Shown piece after piece: positions 4,452 to 24,000 of a stretch of 24,000 bases of DNA. A model generated the notes under the pieces. It was not told the DNA's origin, searched no databases, and saw only the letters and a list, made by a program, of their open reading frames with translations. Origin of the DNA: Phaeospirillum sp. (GTDB taxonomy: Bacteria > Pseudomonadota > Alphaproteobacteria > Rhodospirillales > Magnetospirillaceae); the NCBI GenBank assembly GCA_030651575.1, contig JAUSFB010000032.1, positions 1 through 24,000 on the forward strand. The letters are read 5' to 3'. Position numbers and translations under genes: made by a program. Positions within the stretch are counted from its first letter, which is position 1. Each line of letters opens with the position of its first letter.

Positions 4452-4459
4452 GTGCCCTC

Positions 4460-5284: not shown

Positions 5285-5297
5285 GGAATTTTCGATT

Positions 5298-6086: not shown

Positions 6087-6089
6087 GCT

Positions 6090-6554: not shown

Positions 6555-6591
6555 TCCCGGTTAAATAACGAATAATGGAGGAATGCTAAAA

Positions 6592-7499: not shown

Positions 7500-7583
7500 T
7501 CGCCTTTGGCGCGCAGCACGCTCAGCGCCGCGCGCAACCCCTGATGGCTTTTAAATCATGCGCAGCTTTTGGCAAGACGCGCC

Positions 7584-7741
7584 TTTGCAAACAGGTGCAT
7601 TTGAAAGTGTTAGTAATTCTATCGGTAGCGTGCGCTGTGCGCACGGTTTTGGGTTGTGTTGTCGTGCGCACAGCGCACGCTACGCGCTAATCCGACACAG
7701 GTTAGCAATCGACCGACACTTTTAAATGCACTCTTTGCAAA
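7584..7741. repeat. Nested palindromic intergenic element (~158 bp)
   Basis: The inner stem is a perfect 21-bp inverted repeat, 7625-7645 against 7663-7683, with a 17-nt loop. The outer stem pairs 7595-7610 with 7716-7731 at 15 of 16 positions, and the one mismatch is G:T. The self-complementary octamer TTTGCAAA at 7584-7591 and 7734-7741 extends it further. All pairings were checked base by base. Confidence 0.75.
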
Positions 7742-7775
7742 CCGTATTCCCCGATTGTAAACAACAGGATTGGTA

Positions 7776-9273
<1,498 letters not shown>

Positions 9274-9381
9274 CAAACTGCATGGATGTCGCCCTGAAAG
9301 CTAAACTTGCAGCCACCGGATATTGATGACGGCAGTCAGGCAATTCAGTTTCTCTCAAGCCGAGTATGAAAACAAAAGAAA

Positions 9382-10419
9382 ATGGCAAGCCGCCATACAC
9401 CCCTCGGCAAGGTTGTTTTTGATCCGGCTTTAAAAATCACATTGAATAACTCGATTAAAGAAATCAGGCTTGTCGATGTCGCCGCCGCAGTAATACTGCG
9501 CTCGGACGGTTCCTTCCTGCTGGCGCAACGCCCCGCTGGAAAAGTATATGAAGGCTATTGGGAATTCCCCGGCGGCAAAATTGAGGCGGGCGAAACGCCG
9601 TTGCACGCGCTACGCCGCGAACTGCACGAGGAATTGGGTATCACTGCCACTACCGCTTTCCCTTGGCTGACGCGAGTATTCACTTACCCACACGCCACTG
9701 TCAGGCTGCATTTCTTTCGCGTGACTGAATGGCAGGGGGAGTTGCATGGCCATGAAGGCCAGCAGTTTGCCTGGCAGCCCCCTACCCTGCCACGCCCATT
9801 GGGTGTGATGGGGAAAATTTCTGTTTCTCCCGTGTTACCCGCCAATGCGCCAATTCTGCGCGCGCTGGAATTGCCATACTTGTATGCCATCAGCAATGCT
9901 GCCGAACTGGGTGTGGAGGAATTCATGCGGCGACTGGAAAGCGCATTGCAGAATGGCTTGCGCCTGCTGCAATTACGCGAAAATAATTTGCCGCGTAGCG
10001 AAATGCGCGCATTGTCATTGCGCGCGGTGAAACTGGCACATGCGCACGGCGCACAGGCATTGATTAACGGAGATATCGGGTTGGCACGGGAAACCGGCGC
10101 AGATGGCCTGCATCTGAGCAGCGTGCAGCTTGCTGCATGCGACACGCGCCCCGATGTTCCATGGTGCGGAGCTTCATGCCACAACGCGGAAGAATTACAA
10201 CGTGCCGGAATGTTGGGGCTGGATTTTGCGGTGCTCAGCCCTGTGCTGCCGACGCGAAGCCACCCGGGTGCAGCGCATCTCGGCTGGGAAAAATTTGCAG
10301 AAATGGTGGCCGGAACGGCAATCCCGGTTTATGCGCTGGGCGGGTTGGCGGCAACGGATTTGCCCGTCGCGCAAAGGCATGGCGCACATGGCATCGCTCT
10401 ATTGCGTCAGGCTTGGTGA
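9382..10419 (+). CDS. mutT: Nudix hydrolase (MutT-like 8-oxo-dGTP diphosphatase) fused to a thiamine-phosphate-synthase-like (TMP-TenI) domain
   Basis: The N-terminal half has a Nudix box (GGKIEAGETPLHALRRELHEELGI). The C-terminal half is a ThiE/TenI-like TIM barrel (LLQLRENNL.., INGDIGLARETGADGLHLS, PVYALGGL). This fusion is widespread in Betaproteobacteria. The true start may lie downstream of 9382. Confidence 0.8.
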   Translation: MASRHTPLGKVVFDPALKITLNNSIKEIRLVDVAAAVILRSDGSFLLAQRPAGKVYEGYWEFPGGKIEAGETPLHALRRELHEELGITATTAFPWLTRVFTYPHATVRLHFFRVTEWQGELHGHEGQQFAWQPPTLPRPLGVMGKISVSPVLPANAPILRALELPYLYAISNAAELGVEEFMRRLESALQNGLRLLQLRENNLPRSEMRALSLRAVKLAHAHGAQALINGDIGLARETGADGLHLSSVQLAACDTRPDVPWCGASCHNAEELQRAGMLGLDFAVLSPVLPTRSHPGAAHLGWEKFAEMVAGTAIPVYALGGLAATDLPVAQRHGAHGIALLRQAW

Positions 10420-10487
10420 TTTTCATGTCAGCGCTACTGCGTTGGCTTCCTCGCGCCCCCTTTAAGCTGGGTCGTGGCAGATTTGCC

Positions 10488-10694
10488 TCAGCCTCGAAAT
10501 AAAGCCGGAATAGGTGCCTCTTCGGAGAATTCTTGTTCGGGCTGTTCAACGCGATAGTCTTCATTTGCCCACTTACCCAGATCGATCAGCTTGCAGCGTT
10601 CGCTGCAAAATGGGCGGTAGCGGTTTCTGGTATCCCATTGGTGTTCAGTACCGCAATGCGGGCATGCAACAATCGGCAGCGTCTTGCCTGGCAT
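10488..10694 (-). CDS. yacG: DNA gyrase inhibitor YacG (zinc finger)
   Basis: 68 aa from the ATG at 10694, which overlaps the zapD stop by 1 nt (TAATG). The signature CPHCG...W....YRPFCSERCKLIDLGKWANEDY is present. The track's longer start at 10712 would overlap zapD by 19 nt. Confidence 0.85.
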   Translation of the reverse strand: MPGKTLPIVACPHCGTEHQWDTRNRYRPFCSERCKLIDLGKWANEDYRVEQPEQEFSEEAPIPALFRG

Positions 10695-11455
10695 TATGAG
10701 AGAAGGCTGCAAAAGGTCAGATCAAACGGCACATCCTGTTCGAACAGCGTGGATTTTGCAGCATAGTTGGCGGCGATGAAACGGATATTGATGGCGTACT
10801 TATTGGCGCCAACCTCAGGTATGCAAACCAGATCGCTGCTCAGGCTGACGCGCAGCATCTGCGCGGTACGCCCACCTTGCATCTGCTGGAAAGATCCCTG
10901 ATGTGCGGTAAAGTGAAAAACCTTACCGCTTTCGCGCAACAGGCGCAGGACGATTTTCAGGCCTGCATATAAAGGCAAGAACGGGGCCAGCCACATCTGC
11001 AGGCTTTCACGCCGCAAGGCGGCATCCTGCACCTGCCAGTAGTGATAGGAAGGCAAGTCAAACTCACACGCGCCGCCCGGTATGCAAGTGCGTTGTTTGA
11101 TGCCCATCAGCCATTCGTTTTCACGCAGGTGCTGGCCGATCTTTCCTGTCATGGCGAGCATGTTCGCAGAAGTTTCATCAATCTCCGCGATGATATCCTC
11201 CAGCGCGGCTTCGGATATTTCCGGGTTATTATGCAATGCAAAAAGGGTACGCTTCTGGCGTTCCAGCTCCTGCAACAGATCTGATTTCAAGTCGGCGCGG
11301 CTGATTACTTCGAGAATTTCAAACAGGGTGAGAAGGGCGGCGTGATGATCCATCCCATGATTGCGCATAATGAAATGATCTGTGTGCGCGAACAAGCTTT
11401 CCAATCGCAACAAAGTGCGCACTTTTTCGTTGAGAGGAAACTCATAGTCGATCAC
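10694..11455 (-). CDS. zapD: Cell division protein ZapD
   Basis: 253 aa with a GTG start. The N-terminus YEFPLNEKVRTLLRLESLF matches ZapD (E. coli LFEHPLNEKMRTWLRIEFL). The coaE-zapD-yacG order is conserved. Confidence 0.85.
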   Translation of the reverse strand: MIDYEFPLNEKVRTLLRLESLFAHTDHFIMRNHGMDHHAALLTLFEILEVISRADLKSDLLQELERQKRTLFALHNNPEISEAALEDIIAEIDETSANMLAMTGKIGQHLRENEWLMGIKQRTCIPGGACEFDLPSYHYWQVQDAALRRESLQMWLAPFLPLYAGLKIVLRLLRESGKVFHFTAHQGSFQQMQGGRTAQMLRVSLSSDLVCIPEVGANKYAINIRFIAANYAAKSTLFEQDVPFDLTFCSLLS

Positions 11456-11667
11456 GATTGCATCAGTGGATAAATTTTATTGGCAAAAAATAGTATCGAT
11501 TTATTCGTTTTTATAATGCTCGCTATTAACATGATCGCCGGCTCCAAAATGCAACCCTTGATTTTTAATTTAAAAGTTTCAAGCGCTATTCTATATATTC
11601 TATCACCACCAACCAGATAGATTAAGGGCATAAAAAGACCTTAATTCGATGCACTCCCTAAATACAG

Positions 11668-12285
11668 TCAATAGCTACTTTGCACGTTTGAGTAGCGTTC
11701 ATGCAAGATAGACACCTGTTTGGTCAAACTATCCAGGCCGGCATCATTGCATATGATATCGTCAGCCAGTTGCAGCCTTTCGGCACGCGGAGTTTGCCGG
11801 GCGATGATGGCGCGTACTTCCGCTTCTGTCATGCGGCTGCGTTCGATAACACGCGCAACCTGGGTATTTTCGTCACAATCCACCACCAGCACGCGCTGCA
11901 CCAATTGCCGGAATGCCGCACTTTCCGGCAGCAGCGGCACGACAATAAGTATGTAGGGCTTGTCCTGCAATTGACGCAATTGCGCCTTGGCGCGTTCTCG
12001 TATCATGGGATGCAGAATCCGCTCCAGCCGCTGCCTGGCGGCGTCATCCGAAAAAATCAGCCCACGCATCTTTGTGCGGTTCAATGCGCCGTTATCCGTG
12101 ACGTAGTCGTTGCCAAAAGCAGCGCGGATCGCTTCGATGGCCTCACCGCCGGTTTGCGTCAGACGGTGGGCGATAGCGTCGGTATCGACAATGCCTGCGC
12201 CGTGTTCCACAAACAGTGCAGCAATGGTGCTTTTGCCGCTACCGATCCCGCCGGTGAGTCCGATAATCAGCCTGTCCTGAGCCAT
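11668..12285 (-). CDS. coaE: Dephospho-CoA kinase
   Basis: 205 aa from the ATG at 12285 (MAQDRLIIGLTGGIGSGKST, which contains the P-loop). The track ORF extending to 12528 overlaps pilD and is an overlong extension. Confidence 0.9.
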   Translation of the reverse strand: MAQDRLIIGLTGGIGSGKSTIAALFVEHGAGIVDTDAIAHRLTQTGGEAIEAIRAAFGNDYVTDNGALNRTKMRGLIFSDDAARQRLERILHPMIRERAKAQLRQLQDKPYILIVVPLLPESAAFRQLVQRVLVVDCDENTQVARVIERSRMTEAEVRAIIARQTPRAERLQLADDIICNDAGLDSLTKQVSILHERYSNVQSSY

Positions 12286-12320
12286 GCCTGTCCTGAGCCT
12301 AGTCGAAGGATCAAAGAGTT

Positions 12321-13190
12321 TTATGGAGCAGCGAGCAATTGCAGGTAACCCTGTGTCAGCATTTTCCCCCAAAACAAGGCAATCAGCCCGCCTCCGGCGA
12401 GATACGGGCCAAAAGGGATAGGAATGCTGCGTCCATGTCTGGCCGCCACAATCAGGGTAATGCCAACCACCGCACCCACCATCGAGGACAGCATAATGAT
12501 CAGCGGCAACATTTGCCAACCCATCCATGCGCCCAGCGCCGCGAGCAGTTTGAAATCGCCGTAACCCATGCCCTCTTTGCCGGTGGCTAATTTAAACAGC
12601 CAGAAAACCCCCCACAACGCCAGATAACCGAACATTGCCCCCAGCACCGCGCTATGCAGGCTCGCAAATACGCCGAATGAGTTGAACAGCAAACCGAGCC
12701 AAAGCAGCGGCAGGGTGATGTCATCCGGCAGCAATTGCGTGTCGAAATCGATTGCCGTAAGCGCCAGCAATGCCCAAATGAGCAGTAATGCGCCGGCTGC
12801 CGCAATGCCGAAACCGAAGTGCCATGCAGCATAGGCGCACAGGATGCCACTGGCCGCTTCGATAACCGGATAGCGCGGCGAAATAGGAGCGCCACAACCC
12901 TTGCACTTACCGCGCAACAGCAGGTAACTGATGATGGGTATGTTTTCCCATGCACTGATGGCGTGATTGCAATGGGGGCAGGCGGAACGCGGAATAACGA
13001 GATTATAGGTGGGAGCAGCAGCCGGTTCTTCGCCTCGCAGATCGGCACATTGCTGCCGCCAGCCGATTTCCATCATTTTTGGCATGCGATGGATCACCAC
13101 ATTGAGAAAACTGCCGACCATCAGCCCGAGGATCAGGCACAGGCCGATAAAGGCGGCTGGAACCGCCTGCAGGATTTCCAGGAAGCTCAT
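12321..13190 (-). CDS. pilD: Prepilin peptidase / N-methyltransferase (A24 family)
   Basis: 289-aa polytopic protein. It has the CPHC...CKGC zinc cluster and the catalytic Asp contexts (LTAIDFDTQLLPD; GMGYGDFKLLAALGAW). Confidence 0.92.
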   Translation of the reverse strand: MSFLEILQAVPAAFIGLCLILGLMVGSFLNVVIHRMPKMMEIGWRQQCADLRGEEPAAAPTYNLVIPRSACPHCNHAISAWENIPIISYLLLRGKCKGCGAPISPRYPVIEAASGILCAYAAWHFGFGIAAAGALLLIWALLALTAIDFDTQLLPDDITLPLLWLGLLFNSFGVFASLHSAVLGAMFGYLALWGVFWLFKLATGKEGMGYGDFKLLAALGAWMGWQMLPLIIMLSSMVGAVVGITLIVAARHGRSIPIPFGPYLAGGGLIALFWGKMLTQGYLQLLAAP

Positions 13191-13205
13191 TGGCTTGAGT
13201 GATGA

Positions 13206-13290
13206 GTGGGGCGTGGGGAGTGGGGAGTGGGAAAACCAAAGTCAACTTCCCAACCCATCACTACGCTTCTCACACTTCCCACTTCCCACT
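13206..13290. repeat. Inverted arrays of a GTGGGRA heptad in the pilC-pilD spacer
   Basis: Four tandem heptads on the + strand at 13206-13233 read gtggggc gtgggga gtgggga gtgggaa. About 2.5 units of the same heptad lie on the - strand at 13273-13290. Segments 13213-13229 and 13273-13289 are reverse complements at 15 of 17 positions. The + strand stretch 13208-13231 reads G4-N3-G4-N3-G4-N3-G3. Confidence 0.7.
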
Positions 13291-13301
13291 ATCTACCATC
13301 A

Positions 13302-14519
13302 TCAAACCACCTGGCCCATCTTGAAGATCGGCAGGTACATCGCGATCACCATGCCGCCGATAAGCACGCCAAGCACCGCCATGATGATCGGTTCCATCAG
13401 ACTGGATAACGCCTCTACGGCATCATCCACTTCCCCTTCGTAGAAATCGGCGACCTTGCTCAGCATGGAATCCAGCGAACCGGCCTCTTCGCCGATCGCA
13501 ACCATCTGCAACACCATGCTCGGGAATACCTCGGTATTTTGCATGGCAACGGTCAAGTTTTGGCCGGTGGTGACTTCCCGTTGAATATATTTGGTAGCAT
13601 CAAAATAAACGGCATTACCCGCCGCCCCTGCAACCGAGTCAAAGGCTTCCACCAAAGGCACGCCGGCAGCAAACATGGTGGCAAGGGTGCGCGCCCAGCG
13701 CGCGATGCTGGCCTTGCGGATCAGTTCGCCGAAAATGGGCAGCTTCAGCATTAACCGATCCATCGCATCCTGCATTTTCCTGCTGCGTTTCCAGAAATAG
13801 AAAAAGGTATAAAGGCCGCCGCCGATTCCGCCAAAAATCAGCCACCAGTAAGTCACGAAAACCTTTGAAATCGCCATGACGACCAAGGTGGGGGCCGGCA
13901 AATCAGCGCCAAAGCTGGAGAACAGCTCCTCGAATGCGGGGATAACAAAAATCATGATCACGGCGGTGATGACGAACGCCACGACAATGATCGAAATCGG
14001 GTAGAACAATGCCGATTTGATCTTGCTCTTGATAGCCTGGATTTTTTCCTTGTAAGTGGCCAGACGATCCAGCAGGCTGTCCAGAATACCCGCTGCTTCG
14101 CCGGCACCAATCAGGTTGCAAAACAGTTCGTCGAAGTACAGCGGATATTTTTTGAAGGCCTGCTGCAGGCTGCTGCCGGTTTCCACGTCGGTTTTGATGT
14201 CGAACAGCAGCCGTGCGACAGAAGGGTTGCTGTGCCCTTTACCAACAATATCGAACGCTTGTAGCAGTGGCACGCCGGATTTCATCATGGTCGCGAGTTG
14301 GCGGGTAAATAGAGTGATGTCTTTTTCGGTGACAGGCTGCGTGCTACGGCGGGCGCGTTTTACTTTAATATCGACGATGCCCTGGCGGCGCAAATGAGCG
14401 GACACGCCGGCTTCGCCTGGGCTGCGCATCTCGCCCTTAACCCGCTTGCCGGTCTTGTCCTTGCCTTCCCAAGCATAGATATTTTCTTTTACTTTTTGAG
14501 TTTTTGGTGCGACAGCCAT
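13302..14519 (-). CDS. pilC: Type IV pilus inner-membrane platform protein (GspF/PilC family)
   Basis: 405 aa with two T2SS-F repeats (TRQLATMMKSGVPLLQAF.. and ARTLATMFAAGVPLVEAF..). The C-terminal EPIIMAVLGVLIGGMVIAMYLPIF motif is present. Confidence 0.92.
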   Translation of the reverse strand: MAVAPKTQKVKENIYAWEGKDKTGKRVKGEMRSPGEAGVSAHLRRQGIVDIKVKRARRSTQPVTEKDITLFTRQLATMMKSGVPLLQAFDIVGKGHSNPSVARLLFDIKTDVETGSSLQQAFKKYPLYFDELFCNLIGAGEAAGILDSLLDRLATYKEKIQAIKSKIKSALFYPISIIVVAFVITAVIMIFVIPAFEELFSSFGADLPAPTLVVMAISKVFVTYWWLIFGGIGGGLYTFFYFWKRSRKMQDAMDRLMLKLPIFGELIRKASIARWARTLATMFAAGVPLVEAFDSVAGAAGNAVYFDATKYIQREVTTGQNLTVAMQNTEVFPSMVLQMVAIGEEAGSLDSMLSKVADFYEGEVDDAVEALSSLMEPIIMAVLGVLIGGMVIAMYLPIFKMGQVV

Positions 14520-14612
14520 AGCGTTTTCCCCAAATCACCGTCCAACGTTGACGGGCATGATGCCGAGCTTTAGGCCTCTTGTAAAGCGGTAGTAGCGATT
14601 CATCAATCACCT

Positions 14613-15890
14613 CTACGATTCATTCGCCTGCGGCGGAAAAATGCGTGCCACTTTCACGATACGATCCTGCGTCTGGATGATCTCTATCGGATAGCCCGCA
14701 ATTTTCAGACTGACACCGGCTTCCGGCATATCTTCCAGATGATCGAGGATCAGCCCATTGAGTGTTTTCGCGCCGTCCATCGGCAAACACAACCCTAATT
14801 TTCGGTTCAATTCGCGCAGGCTGCTGCTGCCTTCCAGCAGGATGCTGCCATCTTCCTGGCGCAAAAATTTGCCGGATTGCGAGGGTGACTGGGTAGTGAA
14901 TTCACCGACAATTTCTTCCAGTATGTTTTCCAGCGTCACCAGGCCGAGCAACTCGCCGTATTCGTCCACCACCAGTCCAAGCCGTGTGTGGCGCTCCTGA
15001 AACTGCTGCAATTGCTTGAGCAATGGGGTGTCGGAAGGGATGAAATAAGGTTCATGCAGAATTTCGCGCAGTTGCGCCAGATCCAGCGTTGATTCCTGCA
15101 GCAATGCCAGCACCCGTTTGACATGCAGGATACCGATAATATTGCTGGGCATGCCGTCATAAACCGGCAGCAGCGTGTGGTGGCAGGTAATGATTTGCTG
15201 GCGCAATTCGCTGGCATCCGCATCGATATCAAGCGCTTCGATCTGGTTGCGCGGAACCATCACATCGTTCACGGTGATACGCTCCAGGTCGACCAGGTTC
15301 AGCAGCATTTTCTGGTGTTTGCGCGGCATGAATTGCTCCGCATCCAGCACCAGTCCGCGCAGTTCCTCCAGCGTCATTTTTTGCTTGCTCTGGTCGGTTT
15401 GCACCTTGATGCCGAATATCCCCAACATGCCTTTGACGATAGCGGTCGCAATAGAAACGACCGGATGGAACAGGGTGATAAGCGGCGCAAGCAGATAGCT
15501 GGAAGGCAAGGCGATGCGTTCCGGATGGCTGGCAGCAATGATTTTCGGCATGATTTCGCTGAATACCAGCAGCACGAAGGTGATGCCGAGCGTTCCCAGC
15601 AGCAGCGTCAACTCGCCAGCACCGAACAGCCGCATGATGACCACATTGGTCACCGCTGCGGCCGCTACGTTCAATAAAGTGTTGCCGAACAGGATCGAGC
15701 CGAGCAGCTTGTCCACTTTCGCGAGCAACCTGGAGGTCAGCTTCGCGCTTTTGTTTCCCTTGCGGACCAGGCTGCTCAAGCGATAGCGGTTGATCGCCAT
15801 CATGGATGTTTCAGCGGCAGAAAACCACGCGCCAAAAATGATCAGCAACAACAACACGCCAAGCAGCGCGTCTAAGGAAATATCGTCCAA
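14613..15890 (-). CDS. CNNM/HlyC-CorC family transporter (DUF21 TM domain + CBS pair + CorC_HlyC domain)
   Basis: 425 aa with a TTG start. The DUF21 opening is WFSAAETSMMAINRYRL. The CBS pair region includes ITVNDVMVPRNQI and LGLVVDEYGELLGLVTLENILEEIVGE. The C-terminal transporter-associated domain is also present. Confidence 0.85.
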   Translation of the reverse strand: MDDISLDALLGVLLLLIIFGAWFSAAETSMMAINRYRLSSLVRKGNKSAKLTSRLLAKVDKLLGSILFGNTLLNVAAAAVTNVVIMRLFGAGELTLLLGTLGITFVLLVFSEIMPKIIAASHPERIALPSSYLLAPLITLFHPVVSIATAIVKGMLGIFGIKVQTDQSKQKMTLEELRGLVLDAEQFMPRKHQKMLLNLVDLERITVNDVMVPRNQIEALDIDADASELRQQIITCHHTLLPVYDGMPSNIIGILHVKRVLALLQESTLDLAQLREILHEPYFIPSDTPLLKQLQQFQERHTRLGLVVDEYGELLGLVTLENILEEIVGEFTTQSPSQSGKFLRQEDGSILLEGSSSLRELNRKLGLCLPMDGAKTLNGLILDHLEDMPEAGVSLKIAGYPIEIIQTQDRIVKVARIFPPQANES

Positions 15891-15946
15891 GGTAAGGTTT
15901 TAGTGATATTCGATGGTGAGAATAGTGTGCCAGAGGTATGAGGGTG

Positions 15947-16726
15947 TCAAGTGCGCCGGATGCTTGAAAACATCAGTAATATACCCGCGATCACCATTGG
16001 CAAACTTAACCATTGTCCCATACTCATGCCGAATGACAACAAGCCGAGAAAATCGTCCGGTTCGCGGCTGAACTCCCCGATAAAACGAAAGCTGCCATAG
16101 CCGATCAGGAACATCCCGGATACTGCGCCGACGGGGCGCGACTTGCGCGCATACAGCCAGAGCAAGACGAACAGCAACACGCCTTCCAGCGCGAATTCAT
16201 AAAGCTGCGACGGGTGGCGCGGCAGGTTATCCACATTGGGGAAAATCATCGCCCAGGACACATCGGTGGGTCGCCCCCACAATTCGCCGTTGATGAAATT
16301 GCCGATCCGCCCAAAGGCCAGGCCGGGCGGCACCAGCGGGGCGATGAAGTCGGTCACTTGCAGCCAGCGCAAATGCCGCTTGCGCGCGAGCCACGCCATC
16401 GCCACCAGCACGCCGAGAAAACCGCCGTGAAACGACATGCCGCCCTGCCACACCGCAAGAATTTCCAGCGGATGGCCGAGGTAATAGGAGGCCTTGTAAA
16501 ACAACACGTAGCCCAGCCGCCCGCCCAGAATTACGCCGAGCACACCATAAAACAGCAGATCGTCGAGCAGTTTTGTGTTGATCTGCGGATGATTCAGCGT
16601 GGCGATGCGCCTGCGCCCCAGCCACAGGAAGGCCATGAACCCGGCGAGGTACATCAGCCCGTACCAGTGAATGGCAAGCGGGCCGAGCTGTAATGCAACG
16701 GGGTTGAATTGTGGGTGAACGATCAT
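15947..16726 (-). CDS. lgt: Phosphatidylglycerol--prolipoprotein diacylglyceryl transferase
   Basis: 259 aa. Lgt blocks are [48 protein letters not shown] and RHPSQLYE. Confidence 0.93.
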
Positions 16727-16788
16727 GTATGAATCGGGTAAAATCGCAGCTTCGATTATACGTGCGCTTTATTCCGAAAACCGCAATC

Positions 16789-16904
16789 GTCCGCAGATTA
16801 CGCAGATTATCAATCAGATACACGGGAATTTTTGCGCTTGCGCAGTGGCACTGGCACATTCCCGGCATATTTTTAATCTGCGTTAATCTGTGTAATCTGC
16901 GGAC
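16789..16904. repeat. Iteron-like inverted array of a 9-bp unit (CGCAGATTA / TAATCTGCG) flanking a 53-bp core
   Basis: The left arm at 16789-16820 reads gtc cgcagatta cgcagatta t caatcagata. The right arm at 16874-16904 reads taatctgcg t taatctgtg taatctgcg gac. The outermost 12 bp are perfect reverse complements (16789-16800 against 16893-16904). The core holds cgggaat/attcccg (16823-16829 / 16858-16864) and a tandem TGGCAC TGGCAC (16846-16857). Confidence 0.75.
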
Positions 16905-16946
16905 AGAAACGTTTTTCCAAGGTTTAACTTTCTAAAGAGAGACATT

Positions 16947-18797
16947 ATGCCCGCTTACCGTTCCCGCACTTCCACCCACGGTCGCAACATGGCCGGTGCG
17001 CGCTCCCTGTGGCGTGCCACCGGTATGACTGACGGCGATTTCGGCAAGCCGATCATCGCCATCGCCAATTCCTTCACCCAGTTCGTGCCCGGCCATGTTC
17101 ATCTCAAGGATCTGGGCCAGATGGTGGCGCGTGAGATCGAGAAGGCCGGCGGCGTCGCCAAGGAATTCGACACCATCGCCATCGATGACGGCATCGCCAT
17201 GGGCCATGCCGGCATGTTGTATTCGCTGCCGTCGCGCGAACTGATCGCGGATTCGGTGGAATACATGGTCAATGCCCACTGCGCCGATGCGCTGGTCTGC
17301 ATCTCCAATTGCGACAAGATCACTCCCGGCATGTTGATGGCGTCGTTGCGCCTCGACATCCCGACCATCTTCATCTCCGGCGGCCCCATGGAGGCCGGAA
17401 AGGTCACCTACCAGGGCGAAACCCATGCGGTGGATCTGATCGACGCCATGATCAAGGGTGCCGACAAGGCGGTTTCCGACGAAGAGGCGCTGGCCTTCGA
17501 GCGGGAAAGCTGCCCCACCTGCGGCTCGTGCTCGGGGATGTTCACCGCCAATTCCATGAACTGCCTGATCGAGGCTCTCGGCCTTGGCCTGCCCGGCAAC
17601 GGCACCGTGGTCGCCACCCATGCCGACCGCAAGGAACTGTTCCTGGAAGCGGGCCGGCGGATCGTCGATCTGGCCAAGCGGGCCTATGAGGGCGACGACG
17701 CCTCGGTGTTGCCGCGCTCCATCGCCACCAAGGCGGCGTTCGAGAACGCCATGACCCTGGACATCGCCATGGGCGGTTCCACCAATACGGTGCTGCATCT
17801 TCTGGCGGCGGCCGAGGAGGCCGGGGTCGATTTCTCCATGACCGATATCGACCGTCTCAGCCGGCGGGTGCCGTGTCTGTGCAAGGTGGCTCCCAATATC
17901 CCCGACGTGCATATCGAGGACGTTCACCGCGCTGGCGGCATCGTCTCCATCCTGGGGCAGTTGGACCGTGCCGGCCTGATCAACCGCGATTGCGGCACCA
18001 TCCACTCCCGCACTCTGGCCGAGGCGCTGGACAGCTGGGATATCAGCCGCACCAATTCGCCCAAGGTTGACGAGTTCTATCGCGCCGCCCCCGGCGGCGT
18101 ACGCACCATCGAGGCGTTCAGCCAGGCCAAGCGTTGGGACGCGGTGGACGCCGACCGGACCACGGGTGTGATTCGCTCGGCCGAGCATGCCTTTTCCAAG
18201 GATGGCGGCCTCGCGGTTCTGTTCGGAAATCTGGCGCTGGACGGCTGCATCGTGAAGACCGCCGGCGTCGACGACAAGAATCTGACCTTCTCCGGCCCGG
18301 CGGTGATTTGCGAAAGCCAGGACGAGGCGGTGGCCAAGATTCTCGGCGGTACTGTCAAGGCCGGCGACGTGGTCATCGTCCGTTATGAAGGTCCCCGGGG
18401 CGGCCCCGGGATGCAGGAAATGCTTTATCCCACCAGCTACTTGAAGAGCATGGGCCTCGGCAAGGAATGCGCCCTGATCACCGATGGCCGGTTTTCCGGC
18501 GGCACTTCGGGTCTGTCCATCGGTCATGCTTCGCCGGAAGCGGCCGAGGGCGGGGCCATCGGGCTGGTCGAGGCCGGCGACATCATCGATATCGACATTC
18601 CCAACCGTTCGATTCAGGTGCGGGTCTCAGACGCCGAACTGGAAAATCGGCGCCAGGCCATGGAGGCCAAGGGCGCCAAGGCGTGGAAGCCGGTGGATCG
18701 CGACCGGCCGGTCTCGGCGGCGCTTCGGGCCTATGCCGCCATGACCACCAGCGCCGCCCGTGGCGCTGTCCGCGACGTGTCGCGGATCGAGCGTTAG
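16947..18797 (+). CDS. ilvD: Dihydroxy-acid dehydratase
   Basis: 616 aa. The N-terminus [50 protein letters not shown] is nearly identical in pattern to E. coli IlvD. The Fe-S ligand contexts CDKITPGM and [18 protein letters not shown] are present. Confidence 0.97.
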
Positions 18798-18809
18798 GAA
18801 CAGCCCGAC

Positions 18810-19643
18810 ATGGCCATCATGTGGAGTGAGATGATGAGCGTCGGCGTGCCGGTGCTCGATTCCGACCACAAGACCCTTGTCGGGCTGATCAACCTGCTGC
18901 AACGCTCCATCGGCGACCCCGAGGAATACGTCGCCGTCTACAGCGTGCTGGGGTCGCTGGAGGAATATGCCGCCCATCATTTTACCCGCGAGGAGAAGAT
19001 GATGGTGGCCAGCCGCTGCCCGCAACTGGGCCAGCACCGGCAGTCCCACGAGGGGTTCGCCGAGCAGGTTCGCAATCTGAAGAACCGCTACGAGAGTAAT
19101 CCGACCAGCGTCCGCGCCCGTGATTGCCTCGGATTTCTCAACGACTGGCTGGTCAACCACATCTGTAGTACCGATATGAACTATCGGGCCTGGGTGGTTG
19201 GCCATGTGGACGCCATGGCGTCGGGGCAGGATCTCGTTGAAGAGGAAAGCGGCGGCGCCGATTGGCGACGCCTCAAGATTCTGGTGGTCGATGACAATCT
19301 GAATTTCTGTGAAATCCTGGGCGCTATTCTCCAAAGCGTCGGAATCTCCAGTATCTCCGTGGTCAATGATCTGGCCGCCGCGAAATCGGCCCTGATCGGT
19401 CAGAATATCGATCTCCTTATTTCTGACTGGCATGTGGGGGTGGAAAGCGGTCTGGACCTGGTGAAATGGCTCCGTCAGGGGCCTTTGCCATTGGCGTCGC
19501 TGCCGGTGCTGATGCTGTCGGGGCACGAGCGCATGATCAATCGCGACATCGCTCTGCTGGCCGGAGCCGATGAGTTCATGGAAAAGCCGATTTCGGCGCG
19601 GGGGTTGCTGATCTGTCTGGCGCGACTGGCGGCCCGACAGTAA
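18810..19643 (+). CDS. Hemerythrin-like metal-binding domain fused to a CheY-like receiver domain (no recognisable output domain)
   Basis: Residues ~1-135 form a bacteriohemerythrin pattern: W.....VGV..LD.DHK.L, then HF.REE, then H...HE.F, then FL.DWL.NHI...D. Residues ~155-277 form the REC domain: KILVVDD, the phospho-acceptor context LLISDWHV, LMLSGH and FMEKP. Confidence 0.8.
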   Translation: MAIMWSEMMSVGVPVLDSDHKTLVGLINLLQRSIGDPEEYVAVYSVLGSLEEYAAHHFTREEKMMVASRCPQLGQHRQSHEGFAEQVRNLKNRYESNPTSVRARDCLGFLNDWLVNHICSTDMNYRAWVVGHVDAMASGQDLVEEESGGADWRRLKILVVDDNLNFCEILGAILQSVGISSISVVNDLAAAKSALIGQNIDLLISDWHVGVESGLDLVKWLRQGPLPLASLPVLMLSGHERMINRDIALLAGADEFMEKPISARGLLICLARLAARQ

Positions 19644-19662
19644 AGCGACCGGCTCTCTTTGT

Positions 19663-20436
19663 TCACCGAAGCTCCACCCAGACCGGGGTGTGATCGCTGG
19701 CTTTATCCCTGCCACGCGGGGTCTTGTCGATATCGCAGGCTACCAGCCGGTCGGCTGCCTGGGGCGACAGCAGCAGGTGGTCGATTCTCAGTCCCTGATC
19801 GCGCGGCCATGCTCCCGCCTGATAGTCCCAAAAGCTGTAGCGGCCCTTTTCCGGGTGGAGGGAGCGGAAGGCTTCGGTCAGGCCCAGATTGAGCAATTGG
19901 CGGAACAGAGCCCGGCTTTGCGGCCGGCACAGGGCGTCGTCCCGCCAGCCGGCCGGGTCGTAAACATCGTCGTCGGTGGGGCAGACATTGTAGTCGCCGG
20001 CGAGGATCACTGGGTGGTCCGAGGCCAGCAGGCCCTTGGCATGGCTCACCAGACGGTTCATCCAGCCGAGCTTGTAGTCGTATTTGTCCCCCGGCGTCGG
20101 ATTGCCGTTGGGCAGGTAGAGCGAGGCCAGCCGGATGCCGTCCACCGTCGCTTCCATATACCGTGCCTGCTCGTCGGCATCGTTGCCGGGCAGGCGGTGC
20201 ACGACGTCGATGGCGGGACGCTTGGACAGGATGGCGACGCCGTTATAACTCTTCTGGCCGTGGATGGCGGCGTGATAGCCGGCGGCCTCGATTTCGAAGA
20301 CGGGGAAGTCGTCATCCTGACACTTCGTTTCTTGTAATAGGAGAGTGTCGGGTTGAAACGAGCCCAGCCAATCCAGAAGGTTGGGAAGGCGGGCTCGGAC
20401 GGAATTGACGTTCCAGGTGGCGATGCGAATACCCAT
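19663..20436 (-). CDS. xthA: Exodeoxyribonuclease III (AP endonuclease)
   Basis: 257 aa reading MGIRIATWNVNSVRARL...LLLQETK...GDYN...RIDHLLLSP, with the C-terminal SDHTPVWVEL. These are the EEP-family XthA motifs. Confidence 0.92.
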   Translation of the reverse strand: MGIRIATWNVNSVRARLPNLLDWLGSFQPDTLLLQETKCQDDDFPVFEIEAAGYHAAIHGQKSYNGVAILSKRPAIDVVHRLPGNDADEQARYMEATVDGIRLASLYLPNGNPTPGDKYDYKLGWMNRLVSHAKGLLASDHPVILAGDYNVCPTDDDVYDPAGWRDDALCRPQSRALFRQLLNLGLTEAFRSLHPEKGRYSFWDYQAGAWPRDQGLRIDHLLLSPQAADRLVACDIDKTPRGRDKASDHTPVWVELR

Positions 20437-20592
20437 GAGTATGGGAAACTCCTGATTGCTTTGATCGAAAGGTGTAGATCAGAAAAAATTAATTTAATTT
20501 ATTTCCATTTACATTGCCGAATGACGCTCTGGTAGATATGAATGCAGACAAAGTGCGCCATGGTTATGGCATGATAATTATGGCGTGGGTGG

Positions 20593-22785
20593 ATGTTTAA
20601 GCTTCTTCGGTATTTCTCGCTGACGAGCGCGGTGGCTTTGACGGTGACGGCCGTCTTGCTGGTGATGCTGTATCGCAGCGACCAGATGGACGAGCATACC
20701 AAGATCGCCGAGGAAGAGAATGCCCGGTTGGCCACGTCCTTCGCCAATACATTTTGGCGGCAATTCTCGCCTTTCTTTTCGTCGCTGTCCGGCATTGATC
20801 CGGGGCGCGTCCGTGGGCGTGGCGAGTTTCGCGCTTTGGACATTGCCTTTGAAACCCTTACTTCCGGCTTGCCGACGCTGAAGATCAAGATTTACGGCAC
20901 TCGGGGAGCGGTTCTCTACTCGCAGGTTCGCGAGGAGATCGGCGTGATCGAATTCGATAACTCCAGGTTACTGTCATCCGCTCTTGCGGGTAAATCATCG
21001 AGCAAGATCAGCTTTCGCAACAAGATGGCGGCGAGTTTCGGCACTATTTCCGATCGCTGGGTGGTGGAAACCTACAGCCCGATCTGGTCGGACGGCGGTA
21101 AGGTGGTCGGGGTCTTGGAGCTGTATTCGGACGTCACCTCGACCATGGAGCGTCTGTGGGCCGCCACGGTGCAGCTGGCCGTAGTGATAAGCGCCCTGTT
21201 CGCGGCGCTGTACGGTGTTTTATTCCTTGTGGTCAGGCGGGCCGACCGGATTCTGACCGCCCAGCACCGGGAACTGGACGGAAGCCGGGCGGTTCTGCGC
21301 GAGAAGGAGGAACGCTTTCGCGCCATTGCCGACTACACTTTCGACTGGGAGTCCTGGCTTGATCAGGACGGGCGGCTGCAATGGGTTAATCCGGCGGTCG
21401 AGCGTCTGGCCGGCTATGCCATCGAACACTGCCTGCGGATGGATGACTATCCGCTGCCCATGGTTCATCAGGATGACCGTCCCCTGATGATGAGCATGCG
21501 GGCGGCGGCCCAGGCCGGCGATTTCCAGAACGACGTGGAGTTCCGCCTGATCTGCCGGAACGGCATCATCAAATGGGCGGTGGCGAGCTTTCAGCCGATT
21601 TTTTCCGACCAGGGAGAGCGCATGGGGTCGCGCTGGAGCATTCGCGACATCACCGATCGCAAGAAGGCCGAGCAGCGGTTGCGGGATTCCGAGTTGCGCT
21701 TCCGCACCGTGACCCTGACCGCCGCCGACGCCATCATCTCCATCGACGCCCAGGGCGTGATCATTTCGTGGAATATCGGCGCGGCGCGGATCTACGGATA
21801 TGGCGAAGAGGAGGTTTTGGGGCAGAACGTCACCCAATTGATGCCGGAATCGTTTCGCGAGCGTCATAGATCTGGTCTGTGTAGTTCGGTCGAGACCGGG
21901 CAGGCCAAGATCCTCGGGATTCCAACGCTGTTCGAGGGGCTGCGTCGCAATGGCGAGGTTTTTCCCGTCGAATTGACGCTGTCACGCTGGGAGATGGATG
22001 GGGCGCCATTCTTTACCGCCATCCTTCGCGATATTACCGAGCGTAAGGCGGCGGAGGCTGAACTGGCGCAGCGCACGGCCGATCTGGAACGCTCCAACGC
22101 TGAACTTCAGCAATTCGCCTATGTGGCGTCGCACGATCTGCAAGAGCCGCTGCGGACGGTCACCAGCTTTTTGCAACTGCTGCAACGGCGTTATGGCGAG
22201 AAATTGGATGCCGACGCCGACGAGTATATCGGCTTTGCCGTCGATGGGGCGCGGCGCATGCACCGGCTGATCATCGATCTTCTGGTGTATTCCAGGGTGA
22301 GCACCCATGGCGACAGCTTTCTTCCGGTGGACATGAACGTGCCGCTGTCGCTGGCTTTGACCAATCTGAGCGGAGCGATATCCGAATCCGGGGCTCAAAT
22401 CACTTTCGATTCGCTGCCCGTCATCGAGGCCGATGAGAATCAGATTGTCAGCCTGTTCCAGAACCTGCTTGGCAATGCCATCAAGTACCGGGCCAGGGAC
22501 GTAACGCCGCGGGTCCATGTGGGAGTGACCCCCGAGGGAGAGGGCGCCTGGACTTTTTCCGTGCGCGACAACGGGATCGGGATTGATCCCGGACAGTTCG
22601 ACCGGATATTCGTTATTTTTCAGCGCCTGCATCAGCGGGGCGAATACGAGGGGACCGGCATTGGTCTGGCGGTCACCAAGAAGATCGTCGAGCGCCATGG
22701 CGGCCGGATCTGGGTGGACTCCATCCCCGGAGAGGGAGCGACATTCCGCTTCACCTTGCCGGTGCGGCATGCGCGCAAGGCTTAG
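20593..22785 (+). CDS. Membrane sensor histidine kinase: TM, ~165-aa extracytoplasmic domain, TM, two PAS domains, HisKA, HATPase_c
   Basis: 730 aa. The two hydrophobic segments are LTSAVALTVTAVLLVMLY and LAVVISALFAALYGVLFLVV. The PAS repeats include EERFRAIADYTFDWESW.. and ELRFRTVTLTAADAIISID... The H box is ASHDLQEPLR, the N box LLGNAIKY, G1 DNGIGI and G2 GTGIGLAV. There is no receiver domain. Confidence 0.9.
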   Translation: MFKLLRYFSLTSAVALTVTAVLLVMLYRSDQMDEHTKIAEEENARLATSFANTFWRQFSPFFSSLSGIDPGRVRGRGEFRALDIAFETLTSGLPTLKIKIYGTRGAVLYSQVREEIGVIEFDNSRLLSSALAGKSSSKISFRNKMAASFGTISDRWVVETYSPIWSDGGKVVGVLELYSDVTSTMERLWAATVQLAVVISALFAALYGVLFLVVRRADRILTAQHRELDGSRAVLREKEERFRAIADYTFDWESWLDQDGRLQWVNPAVERLAGYAIEHCLRMDDYPLPMVHQDDRPLMMSMRAAAQAGDFQNDVEFRLICRNGIIKWAVASFQPIFSDQGERMGSRWSIRDITDRKKAEQRLRDSELRFRTVTLTAADAIISIDAQGVIISWNIGAARIYGYGEEEVLGQNVTQLMPESFRERHRSGLCSSVETGQAKILGIPTLFEGLRRNGEVFPVELTLSRWEMDGAPFFTAILRDITERKAAEAELAQRTADLERSNAELQQFAYVASHDLQEPLRTVTSFLQLLQRRYGEKLDADADEYIGFAVDGARRMHRLIIDLLVYSRVSTHGDSFLPVDMNVPLSLALTNLSGAISESGAQITFDSLPVIEADENQIVSLFQNLLGNAIKYRARDVTPRVHVGVTPEGEGAWTFSVRDNGIGIDPGQFDRIFVIFQRLHQRGEYEGTGIGLAVTKKIVERHGGRIWVDSIPGEGATFRFTLPVRHARKA

Positions 22786-23437
22786 CGCCGTTTCGGCGGC
22801 CTGTCTGCTTGCCGCGTCAAGCGCCATGGCGGAGAGCTGCCCGCCGCAACGAGCCGTTGTTCCCAGCCGCAGCGTCACCCTGGCAATCGGAACCGCCACG
22901 CCGATCTATAGCGGCGAATACAACCGCGTCCATCTGACCACCCTGGCCGGACGGGACGGCGCCGGCGCCGGTCGCCTCAACACCGGCTTGACGCGGAGTT
23001 TGGCCGAGGTGAGGCTTACGCCCCAGGTCTGGGAGATCAATCTGGGAGGGGGGCGCCATTGCATCGGGCTGGGGCGGGTGGAGGCCCATTGGACGATCAA
23101 CGAATTGCTGGTCTATATCGCCTCCGAATACCCGCCCGGCGGCTGTAATTACCGGGCCATCCGCGAGCATGAGGACGAGCACGTCGCTTTTGCCCTCGCC
23201 ATCTACAAGGCCTGGACGCCGCGCGTCGAGGCGGCGCTGCGCGACGCGGTGGCGCGGATCAAGCCGGAGGTCTTCACCGGTGATACAAGGCAGGTCTCCA
23301 AGGACATCACCGCCCGCCTGATGCGGGGGTTGCAGCCGACAATCGACGGATTTCGCGCCGAATTGGGGGCTCACAACGCCAGCATCGACACCGCCCAGAA
23401 CTATCGGCTGGTCAACAGCCGTTGTCCAAAGTGGTGA
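22769..23437 (+). CDS. Secreted hypothetical protein with an HExxH motif (possible DUF922/COG5661-like zinc-dependent protease)
   Basis: 222 aa from the ATG at 22769, which overlaps the kinase 3' end by 17 nt. The signal peptide MRARLSAVSAACLLAASSAMA has an A-x-A cleavage site. There are four Cys in the mature part, and HEDEH is encoded at 23168-23182. The track's earlier start at 22583 lies deep inside the kinase. The family assignment is from memory only. Confidence 0.55.
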   Translation: MRARLSAVSAACLLAASSAMAESCPPQRAVVPSRSVTLAIGTATPIYSGEYNRVHLTTLAGRDGAGAGRLNTGLTRSLAEVRLTPQVWEINLGGGRHCIGLGRVEAHWTINELLVYIASEYPPGGCNYRAIREHEDEHVAFALAIYKAWTPRVEAALRDAVARIKPEVFTGDTRQVSKDITARLMRGLQPTIDGFRAELGAHNASIDTAQNYRLVNSRCPKW

Positions 23438-23438
23438 T

Positions 23439-23792
23439 CTAGACCGAGAATGAACTGCCGCAGCCGCAGGTGGACGAGGCGTTGGGGTTCTTGATCTGAA
23501 AGGATGAGCCCACCAGATCCTCGACGAAATCCACCATGGAGCCGTCCAACAGGTCCAGCGAGGTCTGATCGATCACCAGCCGGATGCCGTGATCTTCAAA
23601 GATCCGGTCCTCGTCGCCGATCTTGTCGTCCAGCGAAATGCCGTACTGAAAGCCGGAACAGCCGCCGCCGGAAACGCCGACGCGCAGCATCATGTTCGGC
23701 TTGCCTTCCATCTTGATCAGGTTCAAGACCCGCGTCGCCGCGCTTTCGGTGACGCCGACGCGCGCCGCGTAATTGTGTTCCGTCTCGGCCAT
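23439..23792 (-). CDS. erpA: Iron-sulfur cluster insertion protein ErpA (A-type carrier, IscA family)
   Basis: 117 aa from the ATG at 23792 (MAETEHNY..). Signature blocks are LRVGVSGGGCSGFQYG and the C-terminal NPNASSTCGCGSSFSV. The track ORF is extended 20 codons upstream. Confidence 0.9.
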   Translation of the reverse strand: MAETEHNYAARVGVTESAATRVLNLIKMEGKPNMMLRVGVSGGGCSGFQYGISLDDKIGDEDRIFEDHGIRLVIDQTSLDLLDGSMVDFVEDLVGSSFQIKNPNASSTCGCGSSFSV

Positions 23793-24000
23793 GGTCTTCC
23801 TCTTGTCAAGCAATCGGGCGGAGTTTTTCGACGATACCACCCCCGCCGTCACAAGGGGAAGGGGTGTGGGTACAATTTAGGTATGAGAATGCGTAATTCA
23901 AGTGGCCGGACAAGCGGGCGTGCCGTCGTCATGGCTTCCGGTTGCGCTCGCGCGTCTTGGCTTGTAGTGTCCCCAGCATGATCGCGATCAACGACTCCCG

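What the first reader, a model, noticed from the sequence alone, without database searches (positions are those of the whole stretch)
16727..24000. Abrupt switch of codon usage and taxonomic flavour at the lgt-ilvD spacer: the right-hand 7 kb looks like a different genome
Up to 16.9 kb the genes use mixed third positions. In aspS, for example, GCG visibly outnumbers GCC for Ala and CAA/GCA/AAA are common. The mla, pil and zapD genes and their spacers are A/T-rich.

From the ilvD ATG (16947) to the end of the window the picture changes. Third positions are almost uniformly G/C, and Ala is mainly GCC, Gly GGC and Ile ATC. Long antisense shadow ORFs appear (531, 362 and 305 aa), which is typical of high-GC DNA.

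Gene content changes as well. The left block has Beta/Gammaproteobacterial synteny (mlaFEDCB-ibaG-murA; pilCD-coaE-zapD-yacG). The right block carries core genes (ilvD, xthA, erpA) together with hemerythrin-domain signalling, which I associate with Rhodospirillales-type Alphaproteobacteria.

There is no integrase, tRNA or direct repeat at the border, and the cargo is housekeeping rather than island-like. The spacer up to the ATG is A/T-rich like block A, so the junction sits at or just inside the very conserved 5' end of ilvD. That position would be expected for one of two events:
- an assembly or binning chimera collapsed on a conserved gene
- a homologous-replacement event that imported a large foreign segment

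Either would matter for interpreting everything to the right.
Basis: partly seen in the sequence, partly recalled or inferred. Interest (0 to 1): 0.7.

Follow-up and report, generated by a model that had tools for sequence, protein, structure and literature searches.

The report
Two bacteria mis-joined inside ilvD
The composition switch is real, but it most likely marks an assembly error: about 17 kb of Gallionella (Betaproteobacteria) DNA was joined to a Phaeospirillum/Magnetospirillum-type (Alphaproteobacteria) genome inside the conserved start of ilvD, so a public genome carries mislabelled genes and one hybrid protein.

Summary
Codon usage, tetranucleotide profile, gene order and closest relatives all change at the lgt/ilvD border.

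- **Left side (1-17035):** Gallionella DNA, 88-90% nt identical to Gallionella contigs, with Gallionellaceae gene order up to the divergent lgt-ilvD pair.
- **Right side (17039-24000):** Magnetospirillum-clade DNA. IlvD is 92-93% identical in protein, and the order ilvD, hemerythrin-receiver, xthA, erpA is kept.
- **Switch point:** a single clean crossover about 90 nt inside ilvD, between 17035 and 17039. The window matches Gallionella at 7 of 7 diagnostic sites before it and the alpha type at 166 of 175 after it.

The window is part of a 701,840-bp contig of an NCBI MAG labelled Phaeospirillum sp. An independent assembly of run SRR13727527 recovers the right block at 100% identity, but that contig starts inside ilvD. 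It recovers the Gallionella block only as 1-2 kb pieces. It also holds the native alpha-type left flank (SLT-HAD-111 aa plus an alpha-type ilvD start). The same MAG carries that HAD gene on another contig.

I read this as an inter-class chimeric contig (confidence about 0.9). Real homologous replacement is not excluded without reads (about 0.05). Biological interest is low; the value is in data quality.

The parts
1..17035 (.). Gallionella-derived block. Genes: nudB 138-587(-), barstar 808-1206(-), RNase 1209-1577(-), aspS 1589-3388(-), DUF502 3427-4056(-), mlaFEDCB 4460-7499(+), ibaG 7770-8015(+), murA 8023-9273(+), nudix-thiE 9382-10419(+), yacG 10488-10694(-), zapD 10694-11455(-), coaE 11668-12285(-), pilD 12321-13190(-), pilC 13302-14519(-), CNNM/corC-like 14613-15890(-), lgt 15947-16726(-). 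It also holds the lgt-ilvD spacer and the first 89 nt of ilvD.
   Evidence: Window 13300-16733 is 88-90% nt identical to Gallionella contigs L085/L086, and 9472-16733 is syntenic with Gallionella MAG L087. lgt hits are Gallionella/Gallionellaceae wherever named. The left-end genes nudB and barstar fall in 90% clusters with Gallionellales/Gallionella proteins. Tetranucleotide r=0.88-0.93 to Gallionella loci. Annotations.
16727..16946 (.). lgt-ilvD divergent spacer, Gallionella-type from end to end. It contains a roughly 140-nt hairpin element (arms 16776-16809 and 16884-16917).
   Evidence: It aligns over its full length, up to the ATG, with the spacer of Gallionella MAG L087. It has no similarity to the region upstream of alpha ilvD. 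Inverted repeat; fold of -59.7 kcal/mol, z=-7.
16947..17035 (+). Gallionella-type 5' end of the hybrid ilvD (codons 1-30, including A16, S20 and G30).
   Evidence: The window matches the Gallionella base at 7 of 7 diagnostic sites. S20 was seen only in Gallionellaceae sequences. All twelve sequences read apart from the window's own P0001 (Magnetospirillum-clade best hits) have S16/G20 and A or E at residue 30. This stretch differs at 7 of 37 nt from the alpha-type ilvD start assembled from the same run (L091).
17036..17038 (+). Breakpoint interval of the join. It lies inside a stretch (about 17007-17130) where the window is at least 92% identical to L085/L086/L087 or at least 93% to AMB-1, and to both at 17007-17096.
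   Evidence: The last Gallionella-type diagnostic site is 17035 and the first alpha-type site is 17039. Sliding identity.
17039..18797 (+). Alpha-type (Magnetospirillum-clade) remainder of ilvD.
   Evidence: 166 of 175 diagnostic sites are alpha-type. Positions 17294 onward are 100% identical to Logan contig L084. The protein is 92-93% identical to Paramagnetospirillum IlvD.
18810..24000 (.). Phaeospirillum/Magnetospirillum-type block: hemerythrin-receiver protein 18810-19643(+), xthA 19663-20436(-), PAS histidine kinase 20593-22785(+), 203-aa ORF 22826-23437(+), erpA 23439-23792(-).
   Evidence: Same gene order as AMB-1 (L081) and the relatives L088-L090. It is 100% identical to L084, which runs on into dGTPase-argS-SPOR-nagZ as in Magnetospirillum. 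Tetranucleotide r=0.87-0.96 to alpha loci.

Best explanation
The window is an inter-class chimeric contig, that is, an assembly or contig-merging artefact. Run SRR13727527 contains both a Gallionella population and a Phaeospirillum/Magnetospirillum-type population.

In Gallionella, lgt and ilvD are divergent neighbours. In the alpha lineage, ilvD is preceded by SLT-HAD-111 aa and followed by hemerythrin-receiver, xthA and erpA. The first roughly 350 nt of ilvD are so conserved that the two genomes share near-identical stretches.

The assembler, or a later overlap-merging step, walked from the Gallionella path into the alpha path about 90 nt into the gene. This gave a contig whose left part is Gallionella, whose right part is alpha, and whose ilvD is a hybrid.

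**Shown:**
- the two origins;
- the single switch point;
- both populations in the same run;
- the native alpha left flank in the same run and the same bin.

**Inferred:**
- the join happened in silico rather than in a cell;
- which software step made it.
For: 1. **Origins.** Left block is 88-90% nt identical to Gallionella contigs, with Gallionellaceae synteny up to lgt-ilvD. Right block keeps Magnetospirillum-clade synteny, with IlvD 92-93% identical.
2. **One clean switch inside ilvD.** 7 of 7 Gallionella-type sites lie before 17036 and 166 of 175 alpha-type sites after it. The spacer is Gallionella-type up to the ATG.
3. **Provenance.** The window's proteins are MDO8606066-090 of one NCBI MAG, 'Phaeospirillum sp.', on a 701,840-bp contig.
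4. **Independent assembly (Logan) of SRR13727527.**
   - L084 (11.8 kb) equals window 17294-24000 at 100% identity and begins inside ilvD.
   - L091 (3.7 kb) carries SLT-HAD-111 aa plus 37 nt of an alpha-type ilvD start that differs from the window at 7 positions.
   - The Gallionella block appears only as 1.1-kb and 2.2-kb contigs (L092, L093).
5. **The native flank is elsewhere in the bin.** The HAD protein of L091 is exactly MDO8606756.1 of the same MAG, on a different contig of 68,112 bp.
6. **Consistent divergence.** L091 and L084 are similarly diverged from the same alpha relatives (83/82/75% and 86/85/79% nt), as expected if both come from one organism.
7. **Not seen elsewhere.** The hybrid IlvD occurs only in this one record, in a single-member cluster from NCBI only. 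A junction-spanning 45-mer has no match in the JGI metagenome contigs.
8. **Known failure mode.** Shared k-mers between genomes are a recognised cause of chimeric contigs (PMC7299287).
Against: - No reads were available, so coverage, read pairs and clipped reads across 16.9-17.3 kb were not examined.
- With the available references, the exactly shared stretch at the switch is only 3 nt (17036-17038). A k-mer-based misjoin therefore needs the true Gallionella parent to carry GAT rather than GAC at 17037-17039, or needs an overlap-merge step that tolerates mismatches. Neither was verified.
- The native Gallionella ilvD 3' part from this run was not recovered.
- The extent of the Gallionella block to the left of the window is unknown.
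Confidence: 0.9

Rival explanations
1. Real homologous replacement. A Phaeospirillum-type cell took up at least 17 kb of Gallionella chromosomal DNA. One crossover fell in the conserved 5' end of ilvD and a second fell somewhere left of the window. A recombinant subpopulation then coexists with the native form.
For: A single clean crossover in the most conserved stretch of a shared gene is also what recombination would leave. Both organisms live in the same sample. The public contig is continuous across the junction.
Against: - The native alpha flank, with an alpha-type ilvD start, is in the same run and the same bin. A second, non-recombinant population would have to be assumed.
- The cargo is core single-copy housekeeping genes in intact Gallionellaceae order (aspS, murA, lgt, coaE, mla, pilCD, zapD), with unameliorated Gallionella codon usage.
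- In the independent assembly the left block fragments into 1-2 kb pieces while the right block gives 11.8 kb. That fits two populations differing in abundance or diversity.
- The junction and the hybrid protein were found nowhere else.
- From general knowledge: recombination between classes across DNA about 15% diverged, with only tens of nt of near-identity, is very rare.
Confidence: 0.05
2. Genomic island or mobile-element insertion. The foreign block entered by site-specific integration next to ilvD.
For: There is an abrupt change in composition and taxonomy. A hairpin element sits in the spacer.
Against: - No tRNA and no Rfam family is present. The family scans found no integrase domain among the 20 ORFs scanned. 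No direct repeats flank the border.
- The cargo is core housekeeping genes.
- The spacer hairpin is native to Gallionella, being conserved in L087.
- The breakpoint lies inside a coding sequence shared by both lineages, not at an attachment site.
Confidence: 0.01
3. Ordinary heterogeneity within one genome. The two blocks would belong to one organism, with the codon differences reflecting expression level or gene-specific bias.
For: GC and GC3 vary gene by gene. aspS on the left has GC3 0.84, like ilvD.
Against: The closest relatives of the two blocks fall in different classes at 85-90% nt identity each. Each block keeps its own lineage's gene order. Diagnostic sites switch within ilvD.
Confidence: 0.01

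Closest known systems
Inter-genomic chimeric contigs in metagenome assemblies (shared k-mers or conserved regions linking the graphs of different species; reviewed in PMC7299287)
   Same: The two flanks come from different organisms in one sample. The join lies in sequence shared by both. An independent, more conservative assembly breaks in the shared region. The chimera was carried into a binned MAG.
   Different: Such chimeras are usually described between related strains or species, or at rRNA and mobile elements. Here the partners belong to different classes, and the shared sequence is a short, highly conserved stretch of a protein-coding gene. The join also sits within a very long (702 kb) contig.
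Mosaic genes made by homologous recombination (from general knowledge: mosaic penicillin-binding-protein genes of Streptococcus and Neisseria)
   Same: A hybrid coding sequence with one clean crossover in a conserved stretch, and flanking sequence of donor type.
   Different: Known cases involve donors of the same or a closely related genus, short replaced segments and selectable alleles. Here the donor and recipient would be of different classes. The block would be at least 17 kb of housekeeping genes. The native allele's flank is also still present in the same bin.
Genomic islands integrated at tRNA or att sites
   Same: An abrupt shift in composition and taxonomy relative to the neighbouring DNA.
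   Different: There is no integrase, tRNA or flanking direct repeats. The cargo is core genes in ancestral order. The boundary is inside a shared gene.

Membership tests
Inter-genomic chimeric contig (assembly artefact) | The two flanks have different taxonomic origins | tested here: met
   Left block is Gallionella. Right block is Magnetospirillum clade.
Inter-genomic chimeric contig (assembly artefact) | Each flank is colinear with its own lineage up to the junction, and the junction lies in sequence common to both genomes | tested here: met
   lgt-ilvD adjacency in Gallionellaceae. ilvD, hemerythrin-receiver, xthA, erpA order in alpha relatives. The switch at 17036-17038 lies inside conserved ilvD.
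Inter-genomic chimeric contig (assembly artefact) | The native, non-chimeric junctions exist in the same read set | tested here: inconclusive
   The alpha-side native flank, with an alpha-type ilvD start, was found (L091), and the same MAG carries it on another contig. The Gallionella-side native ilvD 3' part from this run could not be retrieved.
Inter-genomic chimeric contig (assembly artefact) | Coverage step, absence of spanning read pairs, or clipped reads at the junction | not testable with these tools
The only evidence is indirect. In the independent Logan assembly of SRR13727527 the left block gives 1.1-kb and 2.2-kb contigs, the right block gives 11.8 kb, and that contig starts inside ilvD.
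Homologous-recombination replacement (real mosaic) | A hybrid gene with the crossover in a conserved stretch | tested here: met
   The chimera explanation predicts this equally.
Homologous-recombination replacement (real mosaic) | The recipient's native allele and flank are replaced, hence absent from that genome | tested here: not met
   The native SLT-HAD-111 aa flank with an alpha-type ilvD start is present in the same run, and the HAD gene is in the same MAG on a 68-kb contig.
Homologous-recombination replacement (real mosaic) | The junction recurs in independent samples or assemblies | tested here: not met
   The hybrid IlvD occurs only in this NCBI record. A junction 45-mer gave 0 hits in JGI metagenome contigs. 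The independent assembly of the same run does not contain the hybrid.
Homologous-recombination replacement (real mosaic) | A second crossover on the far side of the imported block | not testable with these tools
   The Gallionella block runs off the left end of the window, and the MAG contig is not retrievable with these tools.
Genomic island (site-specific integration) | Integrase or recombinase, tRNA or att target, flanking direct repeats | tested here: not met
   No tRNA or Rfam hit. No integrase domain among the 20 ORFs scanned against the family libraries. No flanking direct repeats.

The most novel reading that the evidence does not exclude
The junction is real. A Phaeospirillum/Magnetospirillum-type bacterium replaced the region upstream of ilvD with at least 17 kb of Gallionella core chromosome (aspS, mla, murA, pilCD, zapD, lgt) by homologous recombination, with a crossover about 90 nt into ilvD, and it coexists with the unrecombined form. 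That would be an inter-class transfer of a large block of housekeeping genes through a short conserved anchor.
Probability: 0.05. Interest if true: 0.8.

Novelty: not a real feature. Interest (0 to 1): 0.15.

Why it matters
As biology this is most likely nothing. As data quality it matters.

- **Mislabelled proteins.** A public MAG labelled Phaeospirillum sp. carries at least 17 kb of Gallionella DNA on its 702-kb contig. The 21 proteins MDO8606066-086 are labelled Phaeospirillum in nr but are Gallionella proteins.
- **A hybrid protein in nr.** MDO8606087.1 is a hybrid IlvD that probably exists in no organism.
- **False inferences.** Anyone reading this contig could wrongly conclude that an alphaproteobacterium has ZapD, the Beta/Gamma-type mlaFEDCB-ibaG-murA cluster or this pilCD cluster. 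They could also infer a spectacular inter-class transfer.
- **A general warning.** A short, highly conserved stretch of a protein-coding gene can bridge genomes from different classes, and the join can survive inside a very long contig.

Everything to the right of 17038 can be read as Magnetospirillum-clade genome. Everything to the left is Gallionella.

Tried and rejected
- **Exact look-up of the window's IlvD and of P0001** in the contig index found nothing. The MAG contig itself could therefore not be extended left or right. The right-hand extension came from Logan contig L084 instead.
- **The protein-level sliding comparison of IlvD** showed no sharp breakpoint because the N-terminus is too conserved. 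The breakpoint appeared only with close relatives at nucleotide level.
The large protein search was needed to place IlvD in the Magnetospirillum clade.
- **Two exact-pattern scans of JGI metagenome contigs** found nothing: a junction-spanning 45-mer and a 30-mer covering the Gallionella spacer and ilvD start. The true Gallionella parent's ilvD, and hence the exact length of sequence shared at the join, remains unknown.
- **A paper search for the source study** (Phaeospirillum + Gallionella + MAGs) found nothing, so the assembler and any merging step are unknown.
- **Protein accession numbering** could not show whether the window lies at the contig's left end. The numbers fit that reading but do not prove it.
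- **Genomic island and ordinary within-genome heterogeneity** were considered and rejected (see rivals).
Full report

Yes. GC by 1-kb window rises from about 0.53-0.57 (14-17 kb) to 0.62-0.65 (17-19 kb).

Per-gene GC3 is 0.57-0.75 for the left genes, except aspS at 0.84. It is 0.75-0.84 for ilvD, the hemerythrin-receiver gene, xthA, the histidine kinase and erpA.

Pooled codon usage differs strongly:

| Codon | Left | Right |
|---|---|---|
| Ala GCA | 21% | 2% |
| Ala GCC | 29% | 61% |
| Lys AAA | 47% | 10% |
| Glu GAA | 67% | 38% |

The summed chi-square is 283 on 41 df, against 80 for a left-half versus left-half control.

Tetranucleotide profiles of the left segments correlate at 0.88-0.93 with Gallionella loci. 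The right segments correlate at 0.87-0.96 with Magnetospirillum-clade loci.

There is no tRNA and no Rfam family.

Two nuances apply. aspS has the same GC3 as ilvD, although its codon choice is different (GCG 29 vs GCC 11). Long shadow ORFs also occur on the left, for example 652 aa opposite aspS.

**2. Where the two halves come from**

*Right block.* A scan of species-representative genomes with IlvD gave alpha MAGs as best hits, at only 79-83%. The large protein search showed:
- IlvD is 100% identical to MDO8606087.1, 'MAG: Phaeospirillum sp.', on a contig of 701,840 bp.
- IlvD is 90-93% identical to Paramagnetospirillum and Magnetospirillum IlvD.

*Left block.* Lgt hits Gallionella/Gallionellaceae wherever a source names the protein. 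The best are 98% to a JGI contig, 94% to a Gallionella MAG and 87% to Ca. Ferrigenium.

*One public record.* Exact look-ups show that all window proteins, from nudB (MDO8606066) through lgt (…086), ilvD (…087) and the kinase (…090), belong to that one NCBI MAG and contig. The leftmost genes (nudB, barstar) fall in 90% clusters with Gallionellales/Gallionella proteins. The left block is therefore Gallionella from the first gene of the window.

**3. Gene order**

*Gallionellaceae.* The loci L038, L085, L086 and L087 carry the following run, next to a divergent ilvD:
- nudix-thiE, zapD, coaE, pilD, pilC, CNNM, lgt.

There, ilvD is followed by aldose epimerase and cytochromes c. Window 13300-16733 is 88-90% nt identical to L085/L086.

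*Magnetospirillum clade.* AMB-1 (L081) and three metagenomic relatives (L088-L090) carry the following run:
- smpB, dapA, SLT, HAD, a 111-aa gene, ilvD, hemerythrin-receiver, a 371-382-aa gene, xthA, sometimes a PAS kinase, erpA, a GGDEF gene, dGTPase, argS (L088 ends soon after erpA).

The window thus follows Gallionella order up to ilvD and alpha order from ilvD onward. ilvD is the only shared gene.

**4. The breakpoint**

The lgt-ilvD spacer (16727-16946) aligns end to end with the spacer of Gallionella MAG L087. The AMB-1 alignment starts exactly at the ATG.

Protein evidence inside ilvD:
- Residues A16, S20 and G30 are Gallionella-type. S20 was seen only in Gallionellaceae.
- Every Magnetospirillum-clade sequence has S16 and G20, and A or E at residue 30.

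Nucleotide evidence inside ilvD:
- Identity to Gallionella relatives is 90-93% for the first 90 nt, the same as the left block, against 82-83% to AMB-1.
- The pattern then reverses, to 93-98% with AMB-1.
- There are 182 sites where the two close Gallionella references agree, the three alpha references agree, and the two groups differ. The window is Gallionella-type at 7 of 7 sites up to 17035.
- From 17039 on it is alpha-type at 166 of 175 sites; 4 are Gallionella-type and 5 match neither.

This is one clean switch at 17036-17038, inside the most conserved stretch of the gene.

**5. Chimera or recombination?**

An independent assembly (Logan) of run SRR13727527 contains four relevant contigs.
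- **(a) L084, 11,805 bp.** It is 100% identical to window 17294-24000. It starts inside ilvD and continues into dGTPase-argS-SPOR-nagZ, as in Magnetospirillum.
- **(b) L091, 3,658 bp.** It carries SLT-HAD-111 aa and then the first 37 nt of an alpha-type ilvD (ATGCCTCCCTATCG…). It differs from the window's ilvD start at 7 positions.
- **(c) L092 and L093, 1,090 and 2,155 bp.** These are the Gallionella block in small pieces, identical to the window apart from one 7-nt repeat-unit difference.

The HAD protein of L091 is exactly MDO8606756.1 of the same MAG, on a different contig of 68,112 bp. L091 and L084 are similarly diverged from the same alpha relatives.

Three things follow:
- The native alpha left flank, with its own ilvD start, exists in the same run and the same bin.
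- Both organisms are in the sample.
- The conserved 5' third of ilvD is where an independent assembler breaks.

The hybrid IlvD is found in no other source, and a junction-spanning 45-mer has no hit in the JGI metagenome contigs. Shared k-mers between genomes are a recognised cause of chimeric contigs (PMC7299287).

I conclude that this is an assembly or merging chimera, with confidence about 0.9.

**6. What remains open**

- Reads were not available, so coverage and pairing across the junction are untested.
- With the references in hand, the exactly shared stretch at the switch is only 3 nt. A de Bruijn misjoin would need the true Gallionella parent to carry GAT at 17037-17039, which would give about 33-36 shared nt. 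Alternatively, an overlap-merging step that tolerates mismatches made the join.
- A scan for the parent's spacer and ilvD start found nothing.
- The leftward extent of the Gallionella block and the position of the window within the 702-kb contig are unknown.
- Real inter-class homologous replacement, coexisting with the native form, is not excluded (about 0.05). It needs extra assumptions and has no independent support.

**7. Verdict**

The feature is not biological. Its value is as a flag on a public MAG, where 21 Gallionella proteins are labelled Phaeospirillum and one hybrid IlvD sits in nr. It also shows that a short conserved stretch of coding sequence can bridge genomes of different classes.

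Noticed in passing
window 16776-16917 (lgt-ilvD spacer): A roughly 140-nt hairpin element with 34-nt imperfect inverted arms built from repeated CGCAGATTA / TAATCTGCG units. It folds at -59.7 kcal/mol (z=-7). It is conserved in the spacer of Gallionella MAG L087 but absent from L085, L086 and L038, which carry different spacer content. It looks like a small MITE/REP-like insertion or a regulatory palindrome of Gallionella.
   Followed up: partly
window ~13258-13272 (pilD-pilC spacer); L092: The tandem heptamer GGGAAGT is present in 2 copies in the window and 3 copies in the Logan contig from the same run. It is the only difference over 1,090 nt. This is either strain microheterogeneity in the Gallionella population or an assembly difference.
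   Followed up: partly
window 808-1577 (-): A barnase/RNase T1-type secreted ribonuclease (122 aa) and its barstar-family inhibitor (132 aa) sit between nudB and aspS. The barstar and nudB clusters include Gallionellales/Gallionella members, so the pair seems to be a conserved Gallionella feature.
   Followed up: partly
window 18810-19643 (+); L081, L088-L090, L004: A hemerythrin domain fused to a receiver domain (277 aa) lies directly downstream of ilvD across the Magnetospirillum clade and in a Rhodospirillaceae MAG. It may be an O2/iron-sensing single-domain response regulator. This conserved linkage to ilvD is unexplained.
   Followed up: no
window 19644-23437 compared with L081, L088, L089: Gene content varies inside the alpha block. 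Relatives carry a 371-382-aa gene (weak haem-oxygenase-like hit) between the hemerythrin-receiver gene and xthA; the window and L084 lack it. A PAS histidine kinase lies between xthA and erpA in the window (730 aa) and in L088 (601 aa), but not in AMB-1 or L089.
   Followed up: no
window 9382-10419 (+): A NUDIX (MutT-like) domain is fused to a ThiE/TENI domain in one 345-aa protein. It is conserved at the same position in the Gallionella loci L087 and L038.
   Followed up: no
public records MDO8606066.1-MDO8606087.1: The 21 Gallionella proteins MDO8606066-086 are deposited as 'Phaeospirillum sp.', and MDO8606087.1 is a Gallionella/alpha hybrid IlvD. A Gallionella sp. MAG with nearby accession numbers (MDO8812564/565) carries 90%-cluster relatives of corC and lgt.
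   Followed up: partly
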